A DNA stretch of 64,000 bases, taken from NCBI GenBank assembly GCA_000004985.1, contig GG738854.1; one strand, 5' to 3'. The position numbers and the translations under genes were made by a program. Source of the stretch: Naegleria gruberi. Its lineage: Eukaryota. Every line of letters begins with the position of its first letter. Position 1 is the stretch's first letter. The notes below the pieces were generated by a model. The model was not told the origin of the DNA. It ran no database searches and saw nothing but the letters and a program-made list of their open reading frames with translations. Below, piece by piece: positions 2,925-54,525 of this stretch.

Positions 2925-4205
2925 TTTGATTTCTACATGAATATAATCAATATTTAAATTATTATATAACAATATATTTTCATCAAATCACATAAATTAT
3001 ACAACAAAATCAAAAACGGATAATTATTATGATGAGTAAATCATATTGATTTAAATGATCCAAAAATCACACAAGTTATAATCACCACCATTGATGCAAA
3101 TCACCATCATCAACACGTCAATCAACAATATGGAATAACAATAATTAGCCTTTGGAAAATTCCATCACACAAAAAACATACAAGTTGAGGAGAAGGTTTA
3201 AGAATTTGAGTTTTTTTTAAAAATCTAATTTGTGTGCTGGATGATGAAAGTAGATATTGCTGATGAACCAAAGGGCAGAATGCAAATAAAAGGTGAGAAT
3301 CATCATCCTAACGGTAATGTTCTTGATGAGTTTGGTGGAGGTATGGATTATTATCTTGTTTCCAAAGCGATAACTGTCATTAATATGAAATATTGTTACT
3401 TGGTGAATAAATATGTAGAAATAGTCGGCTTTGATGACCGTTACGCACTATTCCCGCTCATTAAATTTATTAATTTAAAAAAAAGTCTTTAAAGATTCTT
3501 GAATTACCTCTTGATAATCGGGTTCTTGTATCAAATCAATTGAATAATAATAATTTTATGTAGATTAAACTATTGTGCTGAACTCGAAAAGATTGTAAGC
3601 ATCAATGCATATATCTTTTGAGTTTGGAATTTCTTGCTTGTACAGAATGCCAAGCAGTGTCGATGGTTAGATTGGAAATTAGAAACAACAAAGGCAACAA
3701 CATGGATTGTCTTTTAAGTGTCGCATGTTTAATAGTAGATCCACTGTGCGCTTACTGAAAGTTGTTGTTAGTAAGATCCTCAAAGGGATGATAAACTCCA
3801 CTCACGAATGTTGCCTCTTAATTTCCAAAAGGCCCAATTCATTTCGAAAAGGAAACAACCTGTAGAGGCTTTTAACTTGTAGTACCAAGTTCAGTGAGCC
3901 AATGAAGAAAGAAACAAAGCAAGGACCTCTTTCAGTCAATAGTTTATCTTTGGATCACAATTTAATGTTGTCTTTCATTGAATACTGTTGTGATATGTTA
4001 ATGTTTGTTTGTATTTAACACATGAATGGCTAGATTAATTTATTTCGTGCATACAACTGATGTCTAAAACATTTTTGTTTGGAGTTGTCATGGCATCTAA
4101 CTCTTGATTGTGAAATACCCCATAATTGTAAGGTTTAATTCTCATTCGGACAACCCAAAATTCGAGGGACCAAAACACAATTCAAACGAAAACAAAAACA
4201 ACAAA

Positions 4206-21061: not shown

Positions 21062-21801
21062 TTTTTTTTTCTGTTGAAATCTGTCAGTGCTCAAGATTAG
21101 TGAAATCTCCTTTTGACATTTTGACGACAGGATAGTAAAAGGAAGCGAATTAACGATTGTGCTTTTTCAAGAAAGAATCTGGATAAGCAAGTTAGTCTGT
21201 AATAGAGAACATGTTTACAATACATATTCATTATTCGAAACTTGTTGTAAACTAAATATGTTTTTCTCAAACACAAATGTAACATTAAGGTTTCTAAACA
21301 AGATCACAAAGGAAATTCGAAGGCTAAATTCCCCTGTCTTTCGAATAAAAATATGCGGTTTGGTTGACCACTTCACATTTAGTAATTTTTCTGAGCTACA
21401 TATTTGGAAATTTTATTGCATATTCGAAATATTGGTTCGGCTTTTCAATTTTTAAAAAAACTTCTTTTGAAAAAAACTGTCGCAAACTTGCAACTGAAAT
21501 TCGTCCAGTTTCGAATTGGACTTTTTTTACACATTTTGAAAACAAACTAATCTTAGTTTGTAGAACTTATTCGCATTTAGAAACTAGTTCCAGAAGTTGA
21601 TAAAAAGAAGTCAACCACATCGTATCTGTGATATTCGAAACCTGTCAATTCAATTAGCAATACAAAAAAAAAATCTAATTAGTCCACCATCAACGACAAT
21701 TGACACTTCATCATCTGGATAACCCAACATACTAATATTATTACTTTATACAAATTTTGTTACTACTCCATCCAAGTTTCGAATAACGTTTTTCAAAAAG
21801 A
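21062..21801. promoter_or_regulatory. divergent intergenic/promoter region between the 7TM-RGS gene (-) and the ankyrin-hemerythrin gene (+)
   Basis: 740 bp with no credible ORF, flanked by head-to-head start codons and A/T-rich with homopolymer runs. The small track ORFs here (21097..21600) are AT-rich and non-coding-like. Confidence 0.3.
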
Positions 21802-24531
21802 ATGGGTTTCTTCTCCAATTTATTTCATCATCACAATAAGAATGATCCTAAACACCAATCCGTTTCCGTTTCTTCCACTGCTCCTTCACTAACCTCTCCA
21901 CACACAATAGACGAAACCTCCCATGCCGACCAAGCTCTCGATCAATCCTTTCGTTCAACTGTCAGTTCAACTCACATCAATTCCAATACCTCATCCAGTC
22001 GTTTATCCATCGACTCAATGGCTTCCTCCTTCTCCAATGCCACACAATACAACTCAACTCATAAACATTCAATGAGTAATCCATTTCATTTCCTTCACAC
22101 TCACACTTCACATCATAATCCACAGAGAATGAGTGTTCGTGATTTTGCTCGACAATATTTGGAAGTTTTGGAGAGTGAAAAGAGGAGAGAATTGTTGAAG
22201 AGTGTTTCAATGATACAGACAAACTATTCGAATGGTGGTTGTGTGAGTGCGAATCAGTCGTTGCATGCAATTGTTGGTGGTGCTGCTGCTGCTACAGTAG
22301 TGGGTGATAATGTGAATTCGAATAATGAGAATTTGGTGAGTGAGGAGGCAACTGTTTCGAATGGAATTGCAGAGGTGAATACAGAGTCAACGACACTGGT
22401 GACAGCTGTTGATAATTCAAACACTTCCAATGAGGATGTTGCAGTTAGTAATGAAAATAATCGTCTCAGTATTGAAAATTCACAACTTATCAGAAATATC
22501 AAGAAACAACATGTAAATAATGAGGAGAAACAAACTTTTAAAAAGTTTATTATTGAAAATGAAAAGTATATTCAAACACTCGATGAAATTTATCAAGTTT
22601 GCATTTATGGACAAGTTGAAAGATTGAAGGAACTTGTCTCTGCACATAGTGAAAAATCCGGAAGAAAATTTTCACTCACAATGGCAAGTTTGAGAATGAC
22701 TGGTTCTGTAATTGATATGAGTGGTGATGCAGAACATAAGAATGTAAAGAAACAATCGTGGAGTCATTGTACTCTGGTTCACTTGGCTGCACGTTTCAAT
22801 CAGGTCGATGTTTTAGACATGCTCTTGAAAGAATTTACCAATGAAGATAATCTTTCAGATGTGCTGAATTGTGAGGATGATATTCATGCAACTCCATTGT
22901 TCCATGCTGTGACTGCTGGAGCCATTGAGGCAACTACATTTTTATGCAGTTTCACTCAACAAATCAAAATTAATGTAAAGGACATGTTTGAATGCAGTCC
23001 ACTTTGGTATGCTCTCAATAGAAAAGACTTTGAAATGGCCAATATTTTATTGACATTTGGTGCTGACATGTTCTTTAAAATTCATGGTGGAGAATCCTAT
23101 CTCCATAGAGCTTGTGACAATAATGATATTGCCATGGTTAAGTATATTCTTCTAGGTATTGGAGTGGACGATGAGATTGATTTGACCAATCAAAAGACTT
23201 TACAAATATTCGAGGAGAGACAGAACTTATTTTTGAGAAGTGATCAAAGACATCAAACACCTCTCTTCAATTCTATCAAATCCTATCAGGATAATATGAA
23301 GAAACGTAAATCTGATACTCTTCCATCTCCAAATGAAGCTCCAAATCCACAAAAGGAACAAGTGATGGACTTTTTATTAAGCTTTTTCAATGAACATGCC
23401 CCAGTGTTATTGCAGAAAGCTTTAGATCAAACGAATCACTATGGACACAATGTATTCCACTTCTGCGCTGAGCAAGATGCATTCCAGCAATTGCTCAAAT
23501 TAATCAAATATTTTGAAACTGATGAAAAGCTCAAGTTTGCCCTAAATCTCAAAGACAAAATTCTAGGTAACACCCCACTCCATATTTCTATAATGACAAG
23601 TCATTATGATATTTTTAAACTATTTATTAATTGTAGTGAAGTTGAGTTGAATATTCCAAACCAACAACTAGATTTACCACTCCATGTAGCCCTAAGACAA
23701 CACAAGTTGAGAATGTGTCAATATCTCTATATTCACTATAGTCAACAAGATTTAGAAGTTAAGAATGCTCAAAGATACTCCTCACTGAAATTGGCCAAGA
23801 GATTGGACATTAACATGAAAAAGCTTGCAGAGGGTTCAACAGAAGAATTTGAAAAGAAGAAGATCGTCAAGAACACTTCTGAAAAGAAATGGTGGCACAT
23901 TTTCAAGATTCACAAGCAAAACAATCAACAAGATTCCAGAAAGAGCATGGTTGAAAAGGGCCATACAACACCTCTCGAAGAAATTTCTCAAAATGAAAGC
24001 GAGTTCACCTCATCAACTGATGCCTCTTCCTCTGATTTATCGGCTCAAAGAACAACCTTCCCTCTGGTTATTTGGACTAAGGAGCTGACATTGGGAGTTG
24101 ATATTATTGACACTCAACACCATGCCCTTGTTGACATTATCAACAAGTTGATCAAATTATTGTTTGGAGAAGATAATGCTTTTATTCCTGACAGATCAGC
24201 AGATGAATGGATTCTGGGTTATATAATTGGCAATCTACTCGAATACACTGAATTCCATTTTGAAACCGAGGAGAAAATTATGTCCAAATATCAGAAAATA
24301 CTTCCAGATGGTTATTTAGATGAACATCATCAAGAACATGTCGAATTCACATCGAAAATTCACAAATTGCATCAAGAATACCTTGAAAGTCACTCCACTC
24401 TATCCTTCCTCAATGTGGATTTGTTGAATTATTTACTGAACTGGCTAGTTACTCACATCATGGGAAGTGATCATATTTTGGTTTCTCATCTTAACAAGGG
24501 TATGAAGGAGGGCCAAAAAATCGAATTGTAA
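21802..24531 (+). CDS. ankyrin-repeat protein with C-terminal hemerythrin (HHE cation-binding) domain
   Basis: ANK repeats include 'HLAARFNQVDVLDMLL', 'TPLFHAVTAGAIEAT', 'SPLWYALNRKDFEMANILLTFGAD', 'YLHRACDNNDIAMVKYIL', 'TPLHISIMTSHYDIFKLFI' and 'LPLHVALRQHKLRMCQYL'. The C-terminus 'DTQHHALVDIINKL...EYTEFHFETEEKIMSKY...HHQEHVEFTSKIHKLHQEY...WLVTHIMGSDHIL' matches the hemerythrin H-HxxxE-HxxxH-HxxxxD pattern. Confidence 0.7.
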   Translation: MGFFSNLFHHHNKNDPKHQSVSVSSTAPSLTSPHTIDETSHADQALDQSFRSTVSSTHINSNTSSSRLSIDSMASSFSNATQYNSTHKHSMSNPFHFLHTHTSHHNPQRMSVRDFARQYLEVLESEKRRELLKSVSMIQTNYSNGGCVSANQSLHAIVGGAAAATVVGDNVNSNNENLVSEEATVSNGIAEVNTESTTLVTAVDNSNTSNEDVAVSNENNRLSIENSQLIRNIKKQHVNNEEKQTFKKFIIENEKYIQTLDEIYQVCIYGQVERLKELVSAHSEKSGRKFSLTMASLRMTGSVIDMSGDAEHKNVKKQSWSHCTLVHLAARFNQVDVLDMLLKEFTNEDNLSDVLNCEDDIHATPLFHAVTAGAIEATTFLCSFTQQIKINVKDMFECSPLWYALNRKDFEMANILLTFGADMFFKIHGGESYLHRACDNNDIAMVKYILLGIGVDDEIDLTNQKTLQIFEERQNLFLRSDQRHQTPLFNSIKSYQDNMKKRKSDTLPSPNEAPNPQKEQVMDFLLSFFNEHAPVLLQKALDQTNHYGHNVFHFCAEQDAFQQLLKLIKYFETDEKLKFALNLKDKILGNTPLHISIMTSHYDIFKLFINCSEVELNIPNQQLDLPLHVALRQHKLRMCQYLYIHYSQQDLEVKNAQRYSSLKLAKRLDINMKKLAEGSTEEFEKKKIVKNTSEKKWWHIFKIHKQNNQQDSRKSMVEKGHTTPLEEISQNESEFTSSTDASSSDLSAQRTTFPLVIWTKELTLGVDIIDTQHHALVDIINKLIKLLFGEDNAFIPDRSADEWILGYIIGNLLEYTEFHFETEEKIMSKYQKILPDGYLDEHHQEHVEFTSKIHKLHQEYLESHSTLSFLNVDLLNYLLNWLVTHIMGSDHILVSHLNKGMKEGQKIEL

Positions 24532-31071: not shown

Positions 31072-34000
31072 ATGGCGGTTGGGTTCCTAGTGTTGTTAAC
31101 AACAATATCTTGCCAAATTCAGTCCGATGATTTTATATCTACTGCTCCATTAGAAATACCAAACCTTCTGCCTTCCACTTCATCATTTGTAACATATGTG
31201 TATTTGATAGATGAGGAGTTATATAAGGAGTGTACCAATATTACCACATCAACAGGTTTGTAATTTAAAGATCAATTATCCTTAGTCTTTTTTCATAGTT
31301 AAAAGGTTTTCGTGTCCGAGTATTTACAAATCCATTATGCATTTGAATAAGGAAGTAGGTGGTGAAATTATGATGAGAGATATAAAGTTAGTTCTCAAAA
31401 TTGGACGAGTAACAAGTTGTGAGGTTGCTCCTCTCATGGTTCAGACTTTCATTACAATAATTATTGAAAATTTAGAAGAGGATTCATACGGAACAATATC
31501 ATGTTCTTCGAGTAGAAATCCATCATCTATTATTCCTGATGAAACTCTCCTCCAATTCGTCATTTTGAAAAACATGAGGATGGAATATGTGGAAATTGGA
31601 CTATCCTTTCCATCAGAGGTTAGAATACGTCATTGTTACTTTATTAATTCAAAAATAAGTATTAGGAAGGATGAAAGAATGATGTTTTATGATACTCTTA
31701 AAGTGGAAATAAGTGGAGTAACTTCTCTGCAGAGTTATTTCACATTTTTTAAAGTGGACAAACTTCATTTGAGTAATGTTGCTATTGTTAAAGGAAAAAC
31801 AGATACATTTTCTGTTACCAAAAATGGATGGGATTTCAAAGGAGTTAAGGATGTTCTTCTTGAGGATTGTGTAATTAAGGATGTATTGAGAGTTTTGGAG
31901 GGAACAAATACAAATATTACAACTTCATCATTTGAGGGAGACTCATCACTCTATATTTCTCAATCTGACAATCTATTTATTTCCCAAACATTATTCTCTG
32001 ATTCTATATTAGAATCCTTACCAATGTTAATTATTACTTTTGTGAAGGTGGTTGACATTTCTGATTGTACTGTTGAAAGATTAGGTTCTCAATGGCTTTA
32101 TGTCTCTTCAACAGTTGATATAATTTTGATGCGTTTAATTGTTAATGATTGCAAATTGAAGGGCAATTTAGTCTATCTCACTTCTACAAACAAGGTTTTT
32201 ATTAAGAACTCTCTTTTTAAAGACATTACTGGAACTGTGGTTAATATGGCAAATATTGTAACTTTGGAGTTGAAAAATTCGACTTTCCATTCGTGCCATA
32301 GTAGAATACACGAATCGATTGTGATACTGAACACTAATGAAGTATTTTCAGCTAGTGCAACTAATGAAAAATCGATTATTTGGGGATCAAGATTTATCAA
32401 GTGTTCAGGGTCCAGGGGAGGAGCAATCTTCTTGAGTTCTTTTTATAAGGTTGATATTAACAGGTGTGAATTCATAGCAAATAGTGCACCAAGTGGGAGT
32501 GCAATATACTCGGATAGTAGAAGGGGAATGATTTATACAGCTACAGGGCTGGAACCTACCATCTCCATCTTTCATTCACTATTTCAAGAGAATGGAGACC
32601 CAACTTTTGGGTCAACATCCTCTGGAGGAGCCATTCACGTTAAGGGAAGCATATATATTGAACAATGTACATTTATTGCCAATTATGCTGTTAAGGGTGG
32701 TGTAATTTATATTGACAAATCAGATTCCACCTTTTACTTTAGTCAATACGAACAAAAGTTAGCAGTATTGGTTGCTAGAAGTGAATTTCAGAATAACACA
32801 GCAAATTTTGGAGAAATTTCCTTCACTGAACTACCTGATCCATCACTAATCTATTTCAAAACCAATATTGTTGTATTTAATCCAACTTCTCTGGGATCAC
32901 CTTGTACCAAGCTAATTATTGATAATACGCAATCTGAACGAGGAAATGTTTACAATGGAACATTAATGGTTTACATGGGAGAGAATGTGAATATAAACAT
33001 GATTGCTTCTAATTTATACGGATACATATTCCCAAAACCATACACAATTATTGGAATTAGGACTCCTGGATCTTCCAAGATATTTGTCAAAACATTAGAT
33101 GATGAAGATCATGTTGAAAATCAAACATTTAACAAATCCTTCTCACTCTATTCACATTATGAAATTTCCTCTCATGAAGATTTGGAGATTTTCATTTCTT
33201 ATGATAAGGTTCATATATCACTCAACTTGATTGTAACACCTTGTCCATTATTCTACAAGTGGGAATCTCCTGTTTGTGTTAATATTTTCTACTTGATTCC
33301 AACTGTTGCTTCAGTCACTTTGTTGACGATAGTTATTGGACTTGTAGCAATTGTTGCTTGTTGTATTGCAAGAAACAAGACAAAGAGATGGAATAGTCGA
33401 AAGAAGGCAGAAAGAATAATGGAACAAGCTCTACTTGATAAAAGAGTTATCTTTGAGGAAGATGAAGAGTCTAGCTCATGTAATTTGAATCGACCTTTCA
33501 TAATCTCAGCAGAAGATATTGTAATTGTAAAGAAAATTGGTGAGGGAGGTGCTGCTAATGTTTTCCTTGCTAAATGGAAAGGTCAAGAAGTTGCCATTAA
33601 AACTCTTAAAGAATGTTTCAGAGGAGACAATGAGGTTTTGGAAACAGAAGCTGCCTTGATTAGTAGTTTCCTTCATCCGAATGTGATTAGATTTTGGGGA
33701 TTTTGTGCCTCATCCTCTCAGAAATACATGGTCATGGAGTATATGAAAGGAGGAAGTTTGGAGAATCTGATTCAGAGTTGTAAAATTGGAAAGGAAAAGT
33801 TGTCCCTCTATGAAAAGCTTCAAATTCTGATTGGGGTAGCTAAAGGAATGGCTTATCTGCATGGCTTGAAACCATGTTGTGTTCACCGTGACTTGAAACC
33901 TGGAAATATTCTGTTGGATGAAAATCGAATCAGTAAGGTTGGAGATTTTGGTTTATCCAGACTCATTTCAAATACCTATCAGACCAGTTTTACAACGAAT

Positions 34001-34615
34001 GTGGGTACTTTATTCTATATGGCACCAGAAAACTTTTCTGATAATACCTTCTCTGAAGATTCATTGGGAATGTCTGGTTTTTCACACACAACCTACCAAA
34101 CTACAAATATGACCAACAATACTCATCATTCCATCCAATCATACTATTCAGAGACAGAGTCAGCAGTAGATCAATCGGCAACTATACAAGAATCAGAGAC
34201 CTCTGAGAAGAAACTATTGAATGCTTCAAAGGTTGATGTTTACAGTTATGCAGTGATTATGTGGTCACTCTTCTTTGAGGAAAGTCCTTATGGAAACTAC
34301 AATACTAAGAAGATGAACTTTTTTGGAGATAGTAATGATAACTTTACTAATTGTTACACTGTTTTACCATTGATTCTTCAAGGTAAGAGACCTACAGTAC
34401 CATTTAATTCTGTTGAGAAGATGAAGAGATGGCTTGATGTGTTTGTACTCCCAAAAGAATTAGGAAAGGACAGAGAACATTTATCTAAAATTGTTTTTAG
34501 ATATCTCAACATGATGAAGCTGTGTTGGCATCCACAGCCAGAAGAGCGTCCACCATTTGATCAAATAGTTCCAGAACTGGAAGATTTAGCTGAGCAACTC
34601 CAATACAATAATTGA
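31072..34615 (+). CDS. receptor-like protein kinase: signal peptide, beta-helix ectodomain with Pmp-like 'GGAI' repeats, TM, TKL-type kinase domain; 2 exons
   Basis: Exon 1 is 31072..31255 (ATG in 'aataATGgcg', signal peptide 'MAVGFLVLLTTISCQIQS'). The intron is 31256..31298 (GTTTGT..TTTTTCATAG, 43 nt, phase 1). Exon 2 is 31299..34615, in frame with the 1092-aa track ORF. Ectodomain repeats: 'GGAIFLSSF', 'SGSAIYSDS', 'GGAIHVKGSIYIEQCTFIANYAVKGGVIYID'. TM 'IPTVASVTLLTIVIGLVAIVACCIA'. Kinase motifs: 'IGEGGAANVFLAKWKGQEVAIKTLK', 'HRDLKPGNILL', 'DFGLSR', 'YMAPE'. Confidence 0.65.
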
Positions 34616-43712: not shown

Positions 43713-44028
43713 TTCTTCTTTTCAAAAAACTATTTAGCAATCTTTTTCATATTAAATCGCTATTGCCTTTTTATGAGATATCAACAAGCAGTCTATTTAT
43801 TACTTGATTTTGTAAAGTTTTTTCTTTTCCTATCATCTTTCTGCTCAAAAAAAATCCACTTTAACTCTTGTTAATTCCATTGGTGAGTAGTGTCGATAGA
43901 TCTGTAAGCGTTTTGGCTCATTAACCTTTTCGTGAGTATCCCCGCCTTAGTTACAATCGCTTTTCCATCGAACCAGTAATCTCCAGTCTGCACTTGAAGA
44001 ACCAAAGTCACGTTGATCTCAAAAAAAA

Positions 44029-46281
44029 ATGTTTAGTAACTGCCATCATCATGATGATGCTGAACGTGTAGTAATTATATTGGACGATCATGACAAATTT
44101 ATGGAACAATTATTGAATAGCAAATATAAACAAGAACGAAATTTATCATGCTACAAACAAATATTAAAATATTTAACTAATACGAGAGGTTTAATATTAA
44201 AGTATTATGAATTACCTGTTATATTACGAAGAGATCGGAGATTCATCACTGAAATTGCACAAACTTTTGAATTTTACCAACAATTACCTGAAGAATTTAA
44301 ATCCGATAAACAAGTAATGCTAAATTGTTTTAAAAAGAAAGTATTTAATGGAAGTGATATTAAGAGTGGATATATTCCCTCTAATTTAATGAATGATAGG
44401 AAATTTATATTGGAATTAATTGAAGGAAATCCAACATGTCTCTATTTAGTACCGAAAGAAAGAGAATTCGTGTTGGCAGCAATGAAACACGATATTATAT
44501 ATTTGGGATTTCTCCCAGGAAGTGAAAAGAAGAATGAATCATACATGTGGGAATTGTTTTTGAAAAATTGGGAAAATTTAAGATTTGCAAGTGGTGAATT
44601 ACTAAATAATCCATCATTTGCTATAAAAGTAAGAAAGCATGATACCAATACTTTCAACTATTATTGTGGACGGCCACATTTGGCGGTTCATGCAAGGGAT
44701 AAATTTCGAAATAATAGAGAATATGTGCTTTTTGCTATTTTACATGGAAAAGCTGATTTTACAATGATAAAAAAGGTATTTCAAGCGGATTTGGAAATTA
44801 AAATGGCAAATAATATTAAAACTGATGCCTCCTTATGGAAATTAAAGGAAGAATGGGCAAATGACAAGGAAATGATTTTGAAATATGTCAAACATAATTC
44901 AAATATATTGAAATTTATTAATTTGGAATTACTACAGGATTATGAATTTAATATTAAATTAATTTACAAAAATATTGAAAGTATTCAATTTATTAATGAA
45001 TGCAATACTAATTTTAAACAATTATTTACACAATCAGATAAAACTGAATTAATTTCTAGATATTTAAGCAACAAAAAATTTAACATTAATTCCAAAATTA
45101 TAAATCCAACTAATATTAGAGCATTTGGTTCCAAAATTAATTATATACATTTTATAGAGGAATATTTAAATGAAAACGATTTAATTTATATAACAAGTAA
45201 TATTGATGGACAAGCATGTTACGGTTTGTTAAACGTAATTTCCAATAAGAAAATTTTCAATGAATGCTTACAATTATGGAAAATAACAGTTAAAAAGCAT
45301 TATTCATGTTATGAATTATTTAATATAAAATATACCAAACAAGATATTATTGAGATAATTTCATCCATGCATGAATCTCCTTTTCCATTCCTGGCACACA
45401 TTGATAGAAATGTATTTAGCTCTGAGAGTGAAGTTCTTCTCATTGCAATTCAAACCCATTTCAAGTGCTTTGAATTGGCAAGTAAAGAACTGAAATCTGA
45501 CTTGAATTTTATTAGAAAGTCAGTCAATTTAAATAGAAATATTATTAAAGTAATAGATTTGCAAATTGTACAAGATAATTTGGATTTATTGATTATTTAT
45601 ATAAATTATAAATTAAAAATCAATACCATGTATGGATATCAAAATAGCGCTCATGCATTAAATCCATTAATTAACATATTAGCAAAACATTTACAAAATG
45701 AGGATACAGTTTTACAATTAGTAGAAATACCCCAATTTGTAAATTTATTTTATGGCCATATAGATATTAATTTAAGATCAAGTGAGGAATTCTGTTTAAA
45801 AATATTAAAAACAGATTTGAATAATGCCACTAAAATTCCAAATTTAATTAAATATAGAAATTTCATAATTGAATTTCTAAAAGAGGGAAAATCCATTACA
45901 TTCATTCCTAAAATATTCGAACAGGATGAGGAATTTTTACATTTATTTTTTAAAAACTGGAATCGTACGGAATACCTTCCAATATTACCAGCGGATGAAA
46001 TTTTTATTGGTATTCTAATTAAGGAATTGAAAATTAACCCATCCATATATAGAAATTTTAATAATAGTGATCCGTTGAAACATAATTGGGATATATTATT
46101 GAATGTTGCCAGAGATGTAAATAGCTGTTTAGTTTTTCCCACCACAATATGGCAAGATGAGAATTTTAAATTGGAACTTGTGAAGAGAGGAATTTTTCCA
46201 CCTTCCTTTTTGAAACATTTTAATAGCATTTTGAACGATATGGATTTGATTGTAGAAAATGGTTTTTACTTGATTCAATAA
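44029..46281 (+). CDS. DUF4116 repeat-containing protein
   Basis: 750-aa ATG ORF after an A9 run. At least 8 tandem ~30-aa repeats of the DUF4116 type ('D/N-+-E/Q-hydrophobic-hydrophobic-L-x-hydrophobic-hydrophobic-K-x-N'): 'DKQVMLNCFKKKVFNGSDI', 'DRKFILELIEGNPTCLYLV', 'EREFVLAAMKHDIIYLGF', 'NPSFAIKVRKHDTNTFNYY', 'NREYVLFAILHGKADFTMI', 'DKEMILKYVKHNSNILKFI', 'DYEFNIKLIYKNIESIQFI'. Confidence 0.55.
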   Translation: MFSNCHHHDDAERVVIILDDHDKFMEQLLNSKYKQERNLSCYKQILKYLTNTRGLILKYYELPVILRRDRRFITEIAQTFEFYQQLPEEFKSDKQVMLNCFKKKVFNGSDIKSGYIPSNLMNDRKFILELIEGNPTCLYLVPKEREFVLAAMKHDIIYLGFLPGSEKKNESYMWELFLKNWENLRFASGELLNNPSFAIKVRKHDTNTFNYYCGRPHLAVHARDKFRNNREYVLFAILHGKADFTMIKKVFQADLEIKMANNIKTDASLWKLKEEWANDKEMILKYVKHNSNILKFINLELLQDYEFNIKLIYKNIESIQFINECNTNFKQLFTQSDKTELISRYLSNKKFNINSKIINPTNIRAFGSKINYIHFIEEYLNENDLIYITSNIDGQACYGLLNVISNKKIFNECLQLWKITVKKHYSCYELFNIKYTKQDIIEIISSMHESPFPFLAHIDRNVFSSESEVLLIAIQTHFKCFELASKELKSDLNFIRKSVNLNRNIIKVIDLQIVQDNLDLLIIYINYKLKINTMYGYQNSAHALNPLINILAKHLQNEDTVLQLVEIPQFVNLFYGHIDINLRSSEEFCLKILKTDLNNATKIPNLIKYRNFIIEFLKEGKSITFIPKIFEQDEEFLHLFFKNWNRTEYLPILPADEIFIGILIKELKINPSIYRNFNNSDPLKHNWDILLNVARDVNSCLVFPTTIWQDENFKLELVKRGIFPPSFLKHFNSILNDMDLIVENGFYLIQ

Positions 46282-49503: not shown

Positions 49504-52500
49504 ATGTATCGAATGGGTTTATTTGAATGCCTTCAGTTGTTGATTGTTTGTTGTTTGACATTGGCAATGATAAGTTGTTCTAATGCCCAGACCAGATCAG
49601 TTGATTACAAAATAACAACACTTGCTGGAGGATTGTATGGAGAAGGAGTGAGAGCAACAAATGTTGGTATTAATGGACCGTTTGGTGTTTATTCATCATC
49701 TCTTTCTGGTGGGAACGTTTATTACACAGATGTTTCATATGGGCAAGTGAGATTTGTTGATTCGAATGGAATTTCACATCTTGTTGCTGGCTCACCAACT
49801 TATCATACAGGAACAGCCACAGATAGCTTGACTTTTGCAAATGATACCTTGAACATGCCACACAGTATTTCGTTCAATTCGAATGGAGAGATGTTTATTG
49901 CAGAGTACAACGCAACAAGGATTAGAAAGGTTTATTACAATTCAACTATTGGAGATTACAGTATGATTACTGTTGCTGGAGGTGGTTCTTCTCTTAGCAG
50001 TAACATTTCAGCTCTCAATGCCAAGTTCTCTCAACCTCGATGTGTTGTTGTTTCGCCAAATAATGAAGTTTACATTTGTGATACAGGTAATTACATGATC
50101 AGAAAGATTGTGAATGGTGTTGTGTATAATATTGTTGGAAATGGACAGCAGGGATCAAGTACTGATGGCACTCTTGCTGTCAATGCCAAAGTTTCTCTGG
50201 TATTGAGTGTTGCCTTTCATCCAGTGAGTGGTGAATTGTTCTTTTCTGATTATTCCAATAATGCAATCAAGTATGTCATGAATAATGGCAGCATTTTCAC
50301 ATATGCAACATCTAGTGGCCCTTATGGAATTGCTTTCGACTCGAGTGGCGATAATTTATATGTGGCAGAGTATGGATCTAACAAGATTGTTAAATTCACT
50401 AATGGTGTTAGATCTGTAATTGTCAATACTTTGGGCACAAAAAGTTTCAGTGGAGATGGTGGTAGTTCTTTGAGTGCAACCATCAATCTTCCTGCTGGTA
50501 TTGCACTGAATGGAAATAATCTCTACTTTGCTGATACTGCCAACAATCGTATTAGAGTGGTCAATTTACAAACCAGTATTGTGAATACTATTGCAGGTGA
50601 TGGAACTGCAAGATTCCTTGGAGCTTACTCTGGATCAAGATCAGATGTTTCATTATTTAGACCAGAGACAACATTTTACAATTCACAGACTGATGAGTTG
50701 CTGGTGGCCGACACCCTCAATCATCGCGTAGTTAGAATCAACTCACTGACAAATATCAATACATCCCCAATTGAATCTATTGCTGGTTATACTGGTATTG
50801 CTAGCAATGATGTTGCAGGCAAGTTGGGAAATCAAACCTATCTCAATTATCCATACTCTGTAGCTCAATCAGAAACTAGTGGTGATGTCTATTTTGGAAC
50901 CACTAATTTTGTTTACAAATGGGGAAAGAAAGATCAAAAGATTACACTCATTGCTGGATCGAGTAGTACATTGGCAGGCGATAATTATCTTGCTGTTGGT
51001 TCACAATTATATCAACCAGCTGGTATGGCCTTTGCTTCAAATGGAGATTTATATTTTTGTGATTCTAATAATCATGCTATTAGAAAGATTGATACTCAAG
51101 GTGTGATTACAACACTAACTGGAAATGGAACAGCAGGATTCCAAGATGGTGATGCTGCAAGTGCACTTTTCAATAGTCCAGCTAGTATTGCCTTATTACC
51201 AAATGGCGATTTTCTAGTTGCTGATTTTACCAATTCTAGAATTAGAAAATATGTTGCCAGTACCAAACAAGTTGTTACTATTGCTGGTAATTCAACTCTT
51301 GGTTTCTATGGAGATAATGGACTGGCTTCAAAGGCACTTCTAAACAAACCTACAGGTGTTTTCTATAATTCCACATCAGGTGATATTTTGATTGCTGATT
51401 ATTTCAATTTCAGAATTAGAAAAATTTCCAATAATACAGGAATTATTACAACCATTGCTGGATCTGGTTCAACCAGCTACAATGGAGATGGATTGGCAGC
51501 AACATCTACAAGTATGGCTCCATACGGATTGGCAGTAAATCCAATTAGTGGGGAGCTGTTCTTTACTGATAATGCCAACTTTCTTGTTAGAAGAATTGAT
51601 GCCAGCTCTAAGGTTCACACAGTAATTGGTGTTGCTAAAAGTACAATTTTCAATGTAACCAGTTTGGCCAATTCAACTGGTTTATCTTCAATTTCGTTCT
51701 TGACATTTTCACCAAGTGGTGATCTTTATGTTTCTTGCTTTGGACAACATGTCATCAAAAAGATGAGTTATGGTAGCGATATTGTTTATAATGTAGCTGG
51801 TACAGGAAATACAGATTTGAATGGAGATGGATTGGAAGCAACATTGACCAATCTTTATCAACCAATTGCTGTAGCTTACTCTCCTACTTCCAGTGAATTA
51901 TACTTTTCTGATTATTTACATGATAGAGTGAGAAAAATAACCTCTTCAGGATTGGTTGAAACAGTTGCAGGAGGTTTAGGTGATAAGGGATTGGCTGTTA
52001 ATGCAAAAATCAGAGGTGTTTCATCAATATTACTGGTAGACAATGATTTATATATCTCTGATGCATTCAATTATAGAATTCGTAAAATTTCCCTCTCAAC
52101 TGGTATTATTGATTCCATTGTTGGAGCATCATATGCATCTATTTACAATGGAGATAACTTGGCCAATCAAACCAATATTAACTATGTATGGGATCTGAGA
52201 ATTCAAAACGGTGAACTTGTATTTGCTGACATGAACAATAACTTAATTAGGAAAACAAGTTTATCTGGTAAAGGAAAGGTAACAACCATTGCTGGTATGG
52301 GTACAAACAATGCTTCGATTATTATCGATAATGTCAAGGCAACAAGTGCCTATTTGAAAAACCCTGGTTCTGTTGCATTCTTACCAACTGGTGATATGAT
52401 TATTGCAGAGACAGAAGGTCATATCATTAGAAAGGTTGATTTGAATGGCAATATTTCACTCATTGCTGGATCATTCTTCCAACCAGGTTTCAATGGTGAC

Positions 52501-53535
52501 TTGTCAGATTCAAAGAATTCTTTATTGTATCAACCAACAGGACTTTCTATTTTACAGGATGGTAGAATCATCTTCTCAGACTTTGGAAACAATAGAGTGA
52601 GAATGTTAACACCATATTGTAAGGATGAAAAGTATTATTTGACTCAATCTTCACAAGGTATTGTCTGCAACATTACTTCATGTTATGGACTCGCCTACAA
52701 TGATGCAAAAGTTTGTTCAGGAAATGGAATTTGTTCATCATTGAATAACTGCAGCTGCTCAAGTGGATATTCTGGAAACGATTGCTCAACTGCTGATATT
52801 TGTTCTGTCTTGTCAAGCTCATATGTTTGTACAACAACGTCTCTCAACACAACTGAAACTCAAGTTACAACAGTTCAAAATGTCACTCAATTGGATTCGA
52901 AAACTATCGAGTTCTCATCTACAAGTACTGTCACTGTTTCACTGCCATCAACAATTTCACAATACTTGACAAGTGTTGATTCAACATTGAAGAATGACAC
53001 TGTTACTGTTGTCAGTTCTGTTTCATCAGCAAGCAAAGTAACAGAAACTTCTGAGGTTATTTCACCAGTCATCTCAATTGTTCTTGTCAAGTCAAGTTCT
53101 AATCAAAAAATTTCTGTCCAAAATCTCGAAGAACCAATTTCATTATATTTCAATAAGGTCAACATGACTGTTTCGAATATTGAAACCTTGAATGTAACTT
53201 GTATGTATTATGATGAAAGTGAAAAGGTATGGAAATCGGATGGGGTTGAAAGTGAAATTACAGAGATTATTCTCCACAACCTTGCTGATGGAAATGTTAC
53301 CTTGACAATTTCACTTACATGCAAGACTTTCCATTTAACTTCATTTGGAATCATTGATCAAAACTACAAGAAGGCAACTACTAACTCTAATACTGACGAT
53401 TCCACAATCTTGACAGATTACACAGTTTTAATAGGTGCCATTGTTGGTGGTGTTGGTGGATGTTGTGTTATTGCCACAATTATTACACTCATCATTGTTG
53501 TCATTATCTTTGTAAGAAGAAGAGGAAAGAAATAA
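49504..53535 (+). CDS. secreted/single-pass protein with NHL-type beta-propeller repeats, EGF-like module, GPS motif and C-terminal TM (teneurin- or PKD-REJ-like architecture)
   Basis: 1343 aa. Signal peptide 'MYRMGLFECLQLLIVCCLTLAMISCSNAQT'. More than 15 NHL-like repeats ('LYVAEYGSNKIVKF', 'LYFADTANNRIRVV', 'LYFCDSNNHAIRKID', 'FLVADFTNSRIRKY', 'ILIADYFNFRIRKI', 'LYISDAFNYRIRKI'). EGF module 'CYGLAYNDAKVCSGNGICSSLNNCSCSSGYSGNDC', Ser/Thr-rich stalk, GPS 'CMYYDESEKVWKSDGVE...LTISLTCKTFHLTSFGII' (about 53198-53350), TM 'LIGAIVGGVGGCCVIATIITLIIVVIIFV', and a short basic tail RRRGKK. Confidence 0.7.
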   Translation: MYRMGLFECLQLLIVCCLTLAMISCSNAQTRSVDYKITTLAGGLYGEGVRATNVGINGPFGVYSSSLSGGNVYYTDVSYGQVRFVDSNGISHLVAGSPTYHTGTATDSLTFANDTLNMPHSISFNSNGEMFIAEYNATRIRKVYYNSTIGDYSMITVAGGGSSLSSNISALNAKFSQPRCVVVSPNNEVYICDTGNYMIRKIVNGVVYNIVGNGQQGSSTDGTLAVNAKVSLVLSVAFHPVSGELFFSDYSNNAIKYVMNNGSIFTYATSSGPYGIAFDSSGDNLYVAEYGSNKIVKFTNGVRSVIVNTLGTKSFSGDGGSSLSATINLPAGIALNGNNLYFADTANNRIRVVNLQTSIVNTIAGDGTARFLGAYSGSRSDVSLFRPETTFYNSQTDELLVADTLNHRVVRINSLTNINTSPIESIAGYTGIASNDVAGKLGNQTYLNYPYSVAQSETSGDVYFGTTNFVYKWGKKDQKITLIAGSSSTLAGDNYLAVGSQLYQPAGMAFASNGDLYFCDSNNHAIRKIDTQGVITTLTGNGTAGFQDGDAASALFNSPASIALLPNGDFLVADFTNSRIRKYVASTKQVVTIAGNSTLGFYGDNGLASKALLNKPTGVFYNSTSGDILIADYFNFRIRKISNNTGIITTIAGSGSTSYNGDGLAATSTSMAPYGLAVNPISGELFFTDNANFLVRRIDASSKVHTVIGVAKSTIFNVTSLANSTGLSSISFLTFSPSGDLYVSCFGQHVIKKMSYGSDIVYNVAGTGNTDLNGDGLEATLTNLYQPIAVAYSPTSSELYFSDYLHDRVRKITSSGLVETVAGGLGDKGLAVNAKIRGVSSILLVDNDLYISDAFNYRIRKISLSTGIIDSIVGASYASIYNGDNLANQTNINYVWDLRIQNGELVFADMNNNLIRKTSLSGKGKVTTIAGMGTNNASIIIDNVKATSAYLKNPGSVAFLPTGDMIIAETEGHIIRKVDLNGNISLIAGSFFQPGFNGDLSDSKNSLLYQPTGLSILQDGRIIFSDFGNNRVRMLTPYCKDEKYYLTQSSQGIVCNITSCYGLAYNDAKVCSGNGICSSLNNCSCSSGYSGNDCSTADICSVLSSSYVCTTTSLNTTETQVTTVQNVTQLDSKTIEFSSTSTVTVSLPSTISQYLTSVDSTLKNDTVTVVSSVSSASKVTETSEVISPVISIVLVKSSSNQKISVQNLEEPISLYFNKVNMTVSNIETLNVTCMYYDESEKVWKSDGVESEITEIILHNLADGNVTLTISLTCKTFHLTSFGIIDQNYKKATTNSNTDDSTILTDYTVLIGAIVGGVGGCCVIATIITLIIVVIIFVRRRGKK

Positions 53536-53595: not shown

Positions 53596-54525
53596 TTAAT
53601 TAATAAGTTCAATTACAGTGTTTTCTTGCAAATTCGAAACCAAAGGTTGCAAACAAACAATACATGGCAAATGATCCGATGCATTTTCCTTATACTCACT
53701 CAATACCTTACTCGAAATCAATTTAAACTGATCCTTTCTTCCAAAAATGTGATCATAACTTCCCCACAATGAAAATGGGCCTTTCAGTGGCCAATACCAA
53801 GTTGTTTGATTTTCAATAAAATCATGGAATTTCATTTCTTTGAGGAGGGAGGCATAGTTAGATTGGAATATTCCAGATTGACTTGTTTCGTTGAAATCTC
53901 CTAAAATGATGAGTGGATAGGAACATTTTTGTAATGCTTGTTTCGTATAACTCTCAACTTCATTTCGTCTTACTGAAACGGTTTGATAGAGAAAGGCACT
54001 AATATGTTGTAAATTTCCACCTTCGAATGAGAGAGGAGGTCTCAAATGTAAATTCAATACTTGATAATTAACAGAATCTTCAAGTTTCGAATTCTTTCTT
54101 GTCACAATAATATGCATGGCATCAAAATAACTTCCCTCCACATTACTACTCAACATTTCCACATCCAAATTGAGATTAGCTTTAGCCATCACTCCAGTTC
54201 CACTTGCTAAATAAACATTCGTCTTGGAATGATCCCAAACTTGATTTGGATATTGAGTAGAAAGTGTTGTACTATTCGAAACTGCAATTTCCCACCCAAC
54301 ATGAGTCTCCTGTAAACAAATCAAATCAACATTATCCACATTCTCCTTCATGGCTTGTAAAACTCGTTGACCATTATACGAAAGTGCTCCATCATAATTA
54401 ACACCACCAAAATTCACATTAAACGACATGATTCGAAGAATAGGAAGAGATTTCCGTGATTCTATTAAATCATTTAAAATAGACTGTGGGTTGCGTAATG
54501 ATGTATTGTTTGGAGGTAACGACAT
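53596..54525 (-). CDS. endonuclease/exonuclease/phosphatase (EEP) family protein
   Basis: 309 aa; ATG after an A-run. EEP motifs: 'LRIMSFNVNFGG' (N-terminal strand and Asn), 'DLICLQETH' (catalytic Glu), 'LIILGDFNE' (Asp-Asn) and 'SDHLP' (C-terminal His). Confidence 0.65.
   Translation of the reverse strand: MSLPPNNTSLRNPQSILNDLIESRKSLPILRIMSFNVNFGGVNYDGALSYNGQRVLQAMKENVDNVDLICLQETHVGWEIAVSNSTTLSTQYPNQVWDHSKTNVYLASGTGVMAKANLNLDVEMLSSNVEGSYFDAMHIIVTRKNSKLEDSVNYQVLNLHLRPPLSFEGGNLQHISAFLYQTVSVRRNEVESYTKQALQKCSYPLIILGDFNETSQSGIFQSNYASLLKEMKFHDFIENQTTWYWPLKGPFSLWGSYDHIFGRKDQFKLISSKVLSEYKENASDHLPCIVCLQPLVSNLQENTVIELIN

What the first reader, a model, noticed from the sequence alone, without database searches (positions are those of the whole stretch)
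49504..53535. NHL-propeller / EGF / GPS / single-TM protein sharing its EGF module with the adhesion GPCR
More than 15 NHL-like blades are followed by one 'CSGNGICSSLNNCSCSSGYSGNDC' module of the same type as the GPCR repeats, a Ser/Thr stalk, a GPS motif ending '...CKTFHLTSFG' and one TM helix. This NHL + EGF + juxtamembrane cleavage-site layout echoes teneurins and PKD1/REJ-type GPS proteins. Two large GPS-containing surface proteins within 45 kb using the same EGF cassette suggests exon or domain shuffling within a lineage-specific family of autoproteolytic surface receptors.
Basis: partly seen in the sequence, partly recalled or inferred. Interest (0 to 1): 0.55.

Follow-up and report, generated by a model that had tools for sequence, protein, structure and literature searches.

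The report
Single-pass NHL protein with minimal GAIN domain
This Naegleria gruberi gene encodes a large surface protein (18 NHL propeller blades, one EGF module, one membrane helix). Its membrane-proximal part is a stripped-down version of the self-cleaving GAIN/GPS domain of animal adhesion receptors, and it belongs to an undescribed Naegleria-wide family.

Summary
ORF 49504..53535(+) encodes a 1343-aa type I membrane protein with this layout:
- signal peptide
- 18 NHL blades
- one EGF module
- a GPS-bearing juxtamembrane domain
- one TM helix
- a 6-aa basic tail

On its own the target misses Pfam's GPS threshold (18.8 vs 22.5 bits). However, it belongs to a family of at least 21 aligned single-pass proteins (29 database hits). 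All named members come from N. gruberi, N. lovaniensis or N. fowleri. The family profile hits only adhesion-GPCR GAIN domains in the PDB.

The family keeps HL|T, the aromatic and Gly cleavage determinants, and the C1-C3 disulfide. It lacks the C2-C4 disulfide and the helical subdomain A.

The NHL-EGF ectodomain is collinear (46% identity) with that of a paralogous NHL-GPS-7TM-RGS receptor, and similarity stops right after the EGF. Domain recombination is therefore supported, but not through the neighbouring gene.

Cleavage is plausible but untested. I rate this a new variant of a known kind, of moderate interest.

The parts
49504..53535 (+). Complete single-exon gene, 1343 codons plus stop. 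It encodes a type I single-pass membrane protein.
   Evidence: The N-terminus aligns with the signal peptide of P0001. The C-terminus aligns with the ends of 20 or more family members.
49504..49590 (+). Predicted signal peptide (aa 1-29, MYRMGLFECLQLLIVCCLTLAMISCSNAQ).
   Evidence: Hydrophobic segment at aa 4-28. Same position as the P0001 leader.
49666..52614 (+). 18 NHL blades (aa 55-1037). By inference these form three six-bladed beta-propellers: aa 55-367, 383-710 and 733-1037.
   Evidence: Pfam NHL 3e-53 and TEN_NHL 7e-45. 18 repeat matches. Collinear at 46% identity with P0001. The three-propeller grouping is not modelled.
52681..52785 (+). EGF_2-type module (aa 1060-1094), preceded by a conserved Cys-containing linker PYCKDEKYYLTQSSQGIVCNITSC.
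   Evidence: EGF_2 25.2 bits, above the 22.1 cut-off. The same module sits at the same position in P0001 and P0156. Identity counts.
52855..53355 (+).
53200..53355 (+). GPS motif, 2-Cys subtype (aa 1233-1284). C1233 (C1), Y1235, W1243, G1247 and C1273 (C3) are kept. C2 is replaced by V1248 and C4 by T1275.
   Evidence: Pfam GPS 18.8 bits, model 2-45/45. Alignment A1 invariant columns. HMM alignment to ADGRG6/ADGRL3. hhalign to Naegleria 7TM-RGS GPS regions: 97.6%, E 4e-12.
53332..53340 (+). Predicted autoproteolysis triad H1277-L1278|T1279. The strand that follows, TSFGIIDQNYKK, corresponds to the tethered-agonist (Stachel) strand.
   Evidence: L is invariant and H and T are at least 90% conserved in the 21-sequence family. 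The triad aligns with HL|T of ADGRG6/ADGRL3. Cleavage itself is inferred, not shown.
53425..53514 (+). Single transmembrane helix (aa 1308-1337) with a conserved small-xxx-small zipper (GAIVGGVGG).
   Evidence: Hydropathy. AF2 helix in both models. Family alignment.
53515..53535 (+). Six-residue basic cytoplasmic tail RRRGKK and the stop codon. There is no intracellular domain.
   Evidence: No 7TM or RGS remnant downstream (tblastn). The next gene, 53596..54525, is on the minus strand.

Best explanation
What it is: the gene encodes a type I, single-pass cell-surface glycoprotein. It belongs to a family whose named members are all from Naegleria.

Anatomy:
- The ectodomain has about 18 NHL blades, probably three six-bladed propellers. 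This is the ligand- or substrate-binding part.
- It is spaced from the membrane by one EGF module and a compact GAIN subdomain-B beta-sandwich.
- That sandwich carries a GPS with an intact H-L|T triad about 29 residues before the TM helix.

Most likely mechanism:
- The domain self-cleaves between L1278 and T1279 in the ER.
- This leaves a ~1250-aa N-terminal fragment held non-covalently on a 65-aa stub (strand TSFGIIDQNYKK, TM helix, RRRGKK tail).
- Ligand engagement or mechanical pull could then shed the ectodomain.
- Because there is no cytoplasmic domain, any signal must pass through partners. The glycine-zipper TM helix could bind them.
- The most obvious candidate partner is the paralogous NHL-EGF-GAIN-7TM-RGS receptor, which has a homologous ectodomain. 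Fly Cirl-1TM / Cirl-7TM isoform pairs are a precedent.

Origin: one NHL18-EGF ectodomain has been joined, at the EGF boundary, to two different GPS-plus-membrane modules.

Shown: the ORF, the architecture, GAIN-B homology and predicted fold, family membership, and the recombination boundary.
Inferred: cleavage (about 0.55), shedding, and partner coupling (low).
For: - Architecture.
- Source organism.
- Family: exhaustive phmmer with the C-terminal 249 aa gives 29 hits, from 3e-80 to 8e-4. Most match at their own C-terminal ends. All named ones are N. gruberi, N. lovaniensis or N. fowleri. UniProt auto-labels several of them 'GAIN-B domain-containing protein'.
- Cleavage determinants conserved in at least 90% of members: H, L, T, Tyr at the position of Phe S10.49, and the Gly of the Gly-Cys motif. 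Both of the latter are required for efficient cleavage according to PMC13062082.
- The retained Cys pair is the C1-C3 disulfide of latrophilin, C801-C832 (PMC3321182).
- Recombination boundary.
- 1TM/7TM precedent: bioRxiv 10.1101/2023.01.11.521585.
Against: - The target alone is below Pfam's GPS gathering score.
- The family lacks subdomain A. Its deletion abolished cleavage of latrophilin-1 (PMC3321182). Helices H4 and H6 are described as critically conserved (PMC11697300).
- An HxS/T triad alone does not guarantee cleavage, as BAI2 shows.
- The AF2 model depends on a 21-sequence alignment, and AF2 was trained on GAIN structures.
- Foldseek against the PDB found nothing.
- There are no expression data. 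The protein is absent from public protein sets.
- Partner coupling is pure analogy.
Confidence: 0.6

Rival explanations
1. The GAIN-B-like domain is a non-catalytic structural stalk. The protein stays uncleaved and acts simply as an adhesion or ligand-binding molecule, or as a membrane-anchored decoy for ligands of the paralogous 7TM-RGS receptor.
For: There is no subdomain A and only one of the two GPS disulfides. Deleting subdomain A abolishes cleavage in latrophilin-1. Several human aGPCRs, including BAI2 with an HLS triad, are not cleaved. One family member, P0129, has lost HLT (SLERS) yet keeps the rest of the module.
Against: L is invariant, and H and T are kept in at least 90% of the 21 paralogs across three species. 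The aromatic (S10.49-equivalent) and Gly determinants are kept as well. This is hard to explain by fold stability alone.
Confidence: 0.33
2. One reading: the EGF cassette was recently shuffled between this gene and the GPS-bearing receptor 45 kb upstream. On this view the two form a local pair of related autoproteolytic receptors.
For: The target EGF shares up to 24 of 35 residues with a neighbour repeat, more than with the positional EGF of P0001 (17). Both genes carry a GPS.
Against: The EGF and its upstream Cys linker sit at the same position in P0001 and P0156, so they predate these duplications. The 35-aa modules have about 12 fixed positions, and the neighbour's own repeats share 14-30 of 35 with each other. 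The two GPS modules are different subtypes, 2-Cys single-pass versus 4-Cys 7TM-RGS. The genes in between are unrelated.
Confidence: 0.04
3. The ORF is a truncated relic or pseudogene of an NHL-GPS-7TM-RGS receptor that lost its 7TM and RGS parts.
For: The ectodomain is 46% identical to 7TM-RGS paralog P0001. No matching protein is in public protein sets.
Against: The 4-kb ORF is intact. The post-EGF module is not a degraded copy of the P0001 GAIN. It is a distinct module shared with at least 20 single-pass proteins in three species, at 60-72% identity to P0156 including the TM helix and tail. There are no 7TM or RGS remnants downstream.
Confidence: 0.02
4. It is a homolog of teneurin or of PKD1/REJ.
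For: Pfam TEN_NHL, EGF_Teneurin and EGF_TEN hits. A GPS next to the membrane, as in PKD1/REJ proteins.
Against: The protein has type I topology with NHL N-terminal to the EGF. It has no YD, RHS, TTR or Tox-GHH domains, no REJ or PLAT domains, and no multi-pass region. The teneurin-named models are generic NHL/EGF models that also hit bacterial NHL proteins.
Confidence: 0.01

Closest known systems
GAIN domain (GPS-containing autoproteolytic domain) of adhesion GPCRs, e.g. ADGRG6 (6v55), BAI3 (4dlo), latrophilin
   Different: No helical subdomain A. No C2-C4 disulfide. The first Trp is replaced by Tyr. It is followed by one TM helix and a 6-aa tail instead of a 7TM domain. The organism is a heterolobosean amoeba.
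Naegleria 7TM-RGS proteins with GPS motifs (Bosch et al. 2022, PMC9283941). Here: P0001, P0036, P0040 and window ORF 4720..10008
   Same: Same genus-level family of ectodomains. The NHL18-EGF region is collinear with P0001 at 46% identity. The GPS regions are homologous (hhalign 97.6%).
   Different: The target lacks the ~550-aa stalk and full GAIN region, the 4-Cys GPS, the 7TM domain and the RGS domain. Similarity to P0001 ends at the EGF boundary.
Uncharacterised Naegleria single-pass 'GAIN-B domain-containing' proteins, e.g. N. gruberi EFC47550 (NAEGRDRAFT_47033) and N. lovaniensis C9374_005712
   Same: Same C-terminal module: GAIN-B with a 2-Cys GPS, the ID.N.KKA motif, a glycine-zipper TM helix and a basic tail. 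E-values run from 3e-80 to 1e-10. NHL and/or EGF ectodomains.
   Different: The number of NHL blades and EGF modules varies. Some members (N. fowleri FDP41_013523, P0151) add a cytoplasmic Ser/Thr kinase. The target's own sequence is not in public protein sets.
Single-TM isoforms of adhesion GPCRs (Drosophila Cirl-1TM, GPR126 1TM; bioRxiv 10.1101/2023.01.11.521585)
   Same: An ectodomain plus GAIN domain anchored by one TM helix, coexisting with a 7TM version that carries the same ectodomain.
   Different: Those isoforms arise by intron retention from one gene and keep a full GAIN domain. Here the two forms are separate, anciently diverged genes with different GAIN subtypes. Interaction between them is untested.
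PKD1 / REJ-type GPS proteins and teneurins
   Same: A juxtamembrane GPS (PKD1/REJ). An NHL propeller plus EGF modules in a large surface protein (teneurin).
   Different: No REJ or PLAT domain and no 11-TM region. No type II topology, YD shell or toxin domain. These are analogies only.

Membership tests
NHL-repeat beta-propeller | Repeats score above the Pfam NHL (PF01436) gathering threshold and better than other propeller types. | tested here: met
   NHL 175.7 bits against a cut-off of 20. SGL/SMP-30 41.6 bits. No YWTD hit. 18 blades.
NHL-repeat beta-propeller | Blades close into six-bladed propellers. | not tested
   18 = 3 x 6 is an inference.
GAIN domain / GPS | GPS motif scores above the Pfam PF01825 gathering threshold. 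| tested here: not met
   The target scores 18.8 bits on a 97-aa fragment and 10.3 bits on a 249-aa fragment, against a cut-off of 22.5. 17 of 21 family members match at E <= 0.01.
GAIN domain / GPS | Profile-level sequence homology to solved GAIN domains. | tested here: met
   All significant hits of family profile A1 against PDB sequences are aGPCR GAIN domains: 1.9e-5 to 8e-4.
GAIN domain / GPS | Subdomain-B twisted beta-sandwich with the post-cleavage strand as its last strand. | tested here: met
GAIN domain / GPS | Catalytic H-x-S/T triad (usually HL|T). | tested here: met
   H1277-L1278-T1279. L is invariant and H and T are at least 90% conserved in the family. The triad aligns with HLT of ADGRG6/L3.
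GAIN domain / GPS | Two disulfides formed by four conserved Cys (C1-C3 and C2-C4). | tested here: not met
   Only C1 (C1233) and C3 (C1273) are present. C2 is replaced by Val and C4 by Thr in the target, and both are absent from all 21 members. Pairing as given in PMC3321182.
GAIN domain / GPS | Helical subdomain A (2-6 helices, H4 and H6 conserved). | tested here: not met
   Only 23 residues lie between the EGF and the first strand. The AF2 model has only short intra-sandwich helices. Definition from PMC11697300.
GAIN domain / GPS | Accessory cleavage determinants: an aromatic at S10.49 and the Gly of the Gly-Cys motif. | tested here: met
   Y1235 aligns with the Phe of C-x-F-W. G1247 is conserved in at least 90% of members. 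Determinants from PMC13062082.
GAIN domain / GPS | Autoproteolysis actually occurs. | not testable with these tools
   This needs a tagged construct or mass spectrometry.
Adhesion GPCR (class B2) | A 7TM domain following the GAIN domain. | tested here: not met
   One TM helix only, then RRRGKK and the stop codon. No 7tm_2 hit.
Naegleria 7TM-RGS receptors | A 7TM domain plus a C-terminal RGS domain. | tested here: not met
   Neither is present, and there are no remnants downstream. Only the ectodomain is homologous.
Naegleria single-pass 2-Cys GAIN-B family (unnamed) | The C-terminal module (GAIN-B with C..Y..W..G..C.T.HLTSF.VID.N.KK, TM helix, short basic tail) aligns end to end. | tested here: met
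   phmmer 3e-80 (P0127/P0156), 2e-66, 2e-47 and onward, covering query residues 1-249. Alignment.
Teneurin | Type II topology, EGF repeats N-terminal to the NHL domain, a YD-repeat shell and a toxin-like C-terminus. | tested here: not met
   Signal peptide and C-terminal TM helix. No YD or RHS hits.
PKD1 / REJ | REJ domain, PLAT domain and a multi-pass membrane region after the GPS. | tested here: not met
   None is detected.

The most novel reading that the evidence does not exclude
Naegleria may carry a minimal, self-sufficient GAIN module: subdomain B only, with one disulfide. On this reading it still autoproteolyses, and it is used as a portable juxtamembrane 'breakable joint'. It appears on single-pass adhesion-type proteins like this one and on receptor Ser/Thr kinases (N. 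fowleri FDP41_013523). It would operate alongside full GAIN-7TM-RGS receptors that share the same ectodomains.

That would show three things. GAIN-mediated shedding or mechanosensing is older than, and independent of, 7TM coupling. Subdomain A and the second disulfide are dispensable for catalysis. 1TM/7TM receptor pairing exists outside animals.
Probability: 0.3. Interest if true: 0.7.

Novelty: new variant of a known kind. Interest (0 to 1): 0.45.

Why it matters
Recent literature states that GAIN domains occur only in adhesion GPCRs and PKD1-like proteins (PMC11697300). It also states that subdomain A and both GPS disulfides are constant features.

A conserved family from a protist far outside the animal lineage departs from all of this:
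- It places a subdomain-B-only, one-disulfide GAIN domain on single-pass proteins, and in some members on receptor kinases.
- It still keeps every known catalytic determinant.

This makes it a natural minimal test case for what autoproteolysis really requires, and for what GAIN domains did before they were coupled to 7TM receptors.

It also gives Naegleria a candidate 1TM/7TM receptor pair with homologous ectodomains. The genus includes the pathogen N. fowleri, whose 7TM-RGS system is being studied as a drug-relevant pathway.

For genome annotation, the gene appears to be missing from the public N. gruberi protein set.

Tried and rejected
- Word-index homology search with the C-terminal 249 aa and with family alignment A1 returned nothing.
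- phmmer of the C-terminal 309 aa against PDB sequences found only weak EGF matches.
- Single-sequence AF2 of aa 1035-1343 was uninformative: pLDDT 38.5, with only the TM helix confident.
- The afdb50 fold library was unavailable.
- Exact look-ups of the target protein found no record.
- tblastn for 7TM or RGS remnants downstream of the gene was negative, which rejects the truncated-receptor idea.
- Identity counts for the EGF module are too weak to give a phylogeny. I did not build a GPS tree because about 50 aligned residues cannot support one. The 2-Cys versus 4-Cys character and hhalign were used instead.
- Literature searches for Naegleria with 'GAIN domain' or 'NHL repeat' found no paper.
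- The dictyostelid origin implied by 'LrlA-like' was rejected by the exact matches to N. gruberi proteins.

Full report
**1. The observation**

The window holds one uninterrupted ORF at 49504..53535 on the plus strand, 1343 codons. With the window's base composition, an ORF of that length has a chance probability of about 1e-45.

Only two hydrophobic segments exist: an N-terminal leader (aa 4-28) and one helix near the C-terminus (aa ~1308-1337). The helix is followed by RRRGKK and the stop codon. All 24 N-x-S/T sequons lie between the two segments, which fits a type I surface glycoprotein.

Pfam gives NHL at 175.7 bits (E 3e-53) and TEN_NHL at 154 bits. SMP-30/SGL reaches only 41.6 bits and no YWTD model is hit. 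A repeat HMM built from eight blades of this protein recovers 18 blades between aa 55 and 1037. Grouping them into three six-bladed propellers is my inference.

EGF_2 matches aa 1069-1094 above its curated cut-off, 25.2 against 22.1 bits.

The GPS-like string is present. Taken alone it is sub-threshold: no GPS hit for the whole protein at E <= 1, 10.3 bits on a 249-aa fragment, and 18.8 bits (E 0.0024, model positions 2-45 of 45) on a 97-aa fragment. The cut-off is 22.5 bits.

**2. Where the window comes from**

Three window ORFs are identical to Naegleria gruberi NEG-M proteins EFC47503, EFC47508 and EFC47511, all on a 665-kb scaffold.

The target protein itself is not in the public collection. 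Nothing near-identical to it was found by exact look-up or by homology search. The gene appears to be unannotated.

**3. The ectodomain has a 7TM-RGS paralog**

The best full-length hit is N. gruberi P0001, 2212 aa, with domains NHL, GPS, RGS. Pfam confirms GPS at 30.2 bits and RGS at 32.6 bits.

The target aligns collinearly with it from the signal peptide to the last Cys of the EGF module: aa 10-1094 against 6-1101, 46% identity. Identity is 56% across the linker plus EGF and falls to 13% immediately afterwards.

P0001 continues with about 550 aa of stalk and GAIN, a four-Cys GPS (CQCNHATLF), seven TM helices and an RGS domain. This is the 7TM-RGS class described in N. fowleri: 28 genes, several with GPS motifs and EGF repeats, and RGS domains shown to act as GAPs (PMC9283941).

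The window's 'adhesion GPCR' at 4720..10008 belongs to the same class:
- It has at least 14 EGF_2 repeats, no 7tm_2 hit and a weak RGS hit.
- It aligns from its GPS to its C-terminus with P0001, P0036 and P0040, with E from 1e-41 to 6e-30.

No 7TM or RGS remnant follows the target gene. The next gene lies on the opposite strand.

**4. The C-terminal module defines a separate family**

An exhaustive phmmer search of 1.84 billion representatives with aa 1095-1343 found 29 proteins with E <= 1e-3, 22 of them below 1e-10. Nearly all match at their own C-terminal ends.

Every named one is from N. gruberi, N. lovaniensis or N. fowleri. UniProt auto-labels several N. lovaniensis members 'GAIN-B domain-containing protein'.

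The closest is EFC47550 (P0156), on the same scaffold as the window. It is 46% identical over aa 119-1343. By region it is 60% identical in the GAIN-B part and 72% in the TM helix plus tail.

The alignment shows a conserved module of about 180 aa. It reads ...L[DN]SK..F....V.V.FP......SS....S..S.SL.K....I.V.NL..PI.I.F.N......N..C.Y.DE....WK.DG........C.T.HLTSFAVID.N.KKA. It is followed by about 20 variable residues, a TM helix with a small-xxx-small zipper, and a short basic tail.

Ectodomains in the family vary: NHL blades, EGF arrays, or both. Two members carry a cytoplasmic protein kinase.

**5. The module is a GAIN subdomain B**

Four independent lines support this:
1. A profile of the 21-sequence alignment, searched against all PDB sequences, has significant hits only to adhesion-GPCR GAIN domains. 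The best are ADGRG6 at E 1.9e-5 (covering profile positions 26-161), ADGRL3 at 3e-4, then ADGRG1 and ADGRG3; ADGRF1, ADGRE5 and ADGRD1 follow more weakly.
2. Pfam GPS matches 17 of the 21 members, best E 2.4e-7.
3. hhalign against the GPS regions of four Naegleria 7TM-RGS proteins, including the window neighbour, gives 97.6% probability and E 4e-12.
4. AF2 with the family alignment gives mean pLDDT 89.6 and pTM 0.82. The model has about 11 strands and a few short helices. The segment SFGIID after HLT forms the last strand.

The related ZU5, FIIND and Nup98 autoproteolytic folds follow.

Caveats: the model rests on 21 related sequences, and AF2 has seen GAIN structures in training. Foldseek against the PDB failed to find them.

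Only aa 1095-1117 look like a linker.

**6. How it differs from canonical GAIN**

The family alignment maps onto ADGRG6 and ADGRL3 as follows:
- C1 aligns with C1.
- Y aligns with the Phe of C-x-F-W.
- The second Trp is kept.
- Gly is kept, but the following Cys (C2) is Val, Ile or Leu.
- C3 is kept.
- C4 is Thr.
- HLT aligns with HLT.

In latrophilin-1 the disulfides are C801-C832 (C1-C3) and C820-C834 (C2-C4) (PMC3321182). The family has therefore lost exactly one disulfide pair and kept the other, in all 21 members.

There is no helical subdomain A. Only 23 residues separate the EGF from the first strand. The literature describes two to six helices, with H4 and H6 critically conserved (PMC11697300).

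**7. Will it cleave?**

For cleavage:
- L is invariant, and H and T are at least 90% conserved.
- The two accessory determinants recently shown to matter are also at least 90% conserved. These are an aromatic at S10.49 that stacks on the His, and the Gly of the Gly-Cys motif (PMC13062082).

Against cleavage:
- Deleting subdomain A abolished cleavage of latrophilin-1.
- The missing disulfide is reported as universal in human GAIN domains.
- BAI2 shows that an HxS/T triad is not sufficient.

I put cleavage at about 0.55. If it occurs, the products are an N-terminal fragment of about 1250 aa and a 65-aa stub with no cytoplasmic domain. Output would then be shedding, or signalling through a partner.

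The conserved zipper in the TM helix and the paralogous 7TM-RGS receptor with a homologous ectodomain suggest a 1TM/7TM pairing. Drosophila Cirl and GPR126 are a precedent (bioRxiv 10.1101/2023.01.11.521585). This is analogy only.

**8.

The EGF type is indeed the same as in the neighbour: 16-24 of 35 identical residues, against 19 on average among the neighbour's own repeats. But this is the generic Naegleria module, also found in P0001, P0040, P0143 and P0144. In the target it sits at a position conserved in P0001 and P0156. It therefore says nothing about an exchange with the neighbour. The two GPS modules in the window are different subtypes.

Recombination is nevertheless well supported by a different observation. 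One NHL18-EGF ectodomain is joined, at a sharp boundary after the EGF, either to a full GAIN-7TM-RGS (P0001) or to the compact 2-Cys GAIN-B-1TM module (target, P0156). The same 1TM module is attached to many other ectodomains and to kinases.

**9. Comparison with known families, and novelty**

The protein is not an adhesion GPCR, a 7TM-RGS protein, a teneurin or a PKD1/REJ protein. In each case a defining feature was tested and not met.

It is a member of an uncharacterised single-pass family, named members of which are all from Naegleria. Members of that family carry only automatic 'GAIN-B' or 'EGF-like' labels. I found no paper describing it.

Relative to the GAIN domain as defined in the literature, it is a reduced variant: subdomain B only, with one disulfide. 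It occurs in a new protein context. I rate it a new variant of a known kind, with moderate interest (0.45).

The architecture is solid and the family is real. However, its existence is already implicit in database annotations, and the key functional claim, autoproteolysis, is untested.

Noticed in passing
window 18950..21094 (-): This 714-aa ORF has a multi-pass hydrophobic core and an RGS-like C-terminus. It matches the C-terminal part of 7TM-RGS protein P0036 (tblastn E 2e-8), yet has no EGF, no GPS and no Pfam hit. It looks like a third 7TM-RGS-type gene in the window.
   Followed up: partly
window 4104..4565 (+) and 4720..10008 (+): The neighbour's long ORF begins inside an EGF repeat. The upstream ORF carries a hydrophobic leader and a first EGF module. 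The real gene probably starts near 4200 and contains a short intron before 4720.
   Followed up: partly
window 4720..10008 (+): The 'adhesion GPCR' has no 7tm_2 hit and a C-terminal RGS-like domain (19.9 bits). It aligns from GPS to C-terminus with Naegleria NHL-GPS-7TM-RGS proteins. A GPS directly precedes a 7TM domain outside Holozoa, although a 2025 eLife paper states that the GAIN/7TM linkage is restricted to holozoans (PMC12716839).
   Followed up: partly
P0144/P0161 (N. fowleri FDP41_013523) and P0151 (unnamed ENA record), found: The same 2-Cys GAIN-B module and TM helix are followed by a cytoplasmic protein kinase domain (Pkinase E 3e-51 and 4e-49). These are GAIN-B receptor kinases, an architecture I did not find described.
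   Followed up: partly
window 49504..53535 (+): Neither this protein nor anything near-identical is in the public protein collection, although flanking ORFs are exact matches to EFC47503, EFC47508 and EFC47511. The gene seems to be missing from the N. gruberi annotation.
   Followed up: partly
window 53425..53514 (+), and the family alignment: The TM helix carries a conserved small-xxx-small / glycine-zipper motif (GAIVGGVGG), followed in several members including the target by a CC pair. This suggests helix-helix association.
   Followed up: no
P0154 and P0155 (unnamed Logan/ENA records): These are distant single-pass proteins of 321 and 474 aa with a canonical four-Cys GPS (C.YWDE..W...GC....C.C.HLTDFS) and one TM helix. 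Single-pass GPS proteins therefore also exist in other, unidentified organisms.
   Followed up: no
P0129 (N. gruberi EFC39929): This family member has replaced HLTSF with SLERS while keeping the rest of the module. It is a natural cleavage-site-dead paralog.
   Followed up: no
window 21802..24531 (+) and 31337..34615 (+): One gene fuses ankyrin repeats to a hemerythrin domain. Another 1092-aa protein combines a right-handed beta-helix with a kinase domain.
   Followed up: no
window 44001..46000: GC content dips to 0.258, against about 0.33-0.36 elsewhere. The dip lies over the DUF4116-repeat gene at 44029..46281.
   Followed up: no
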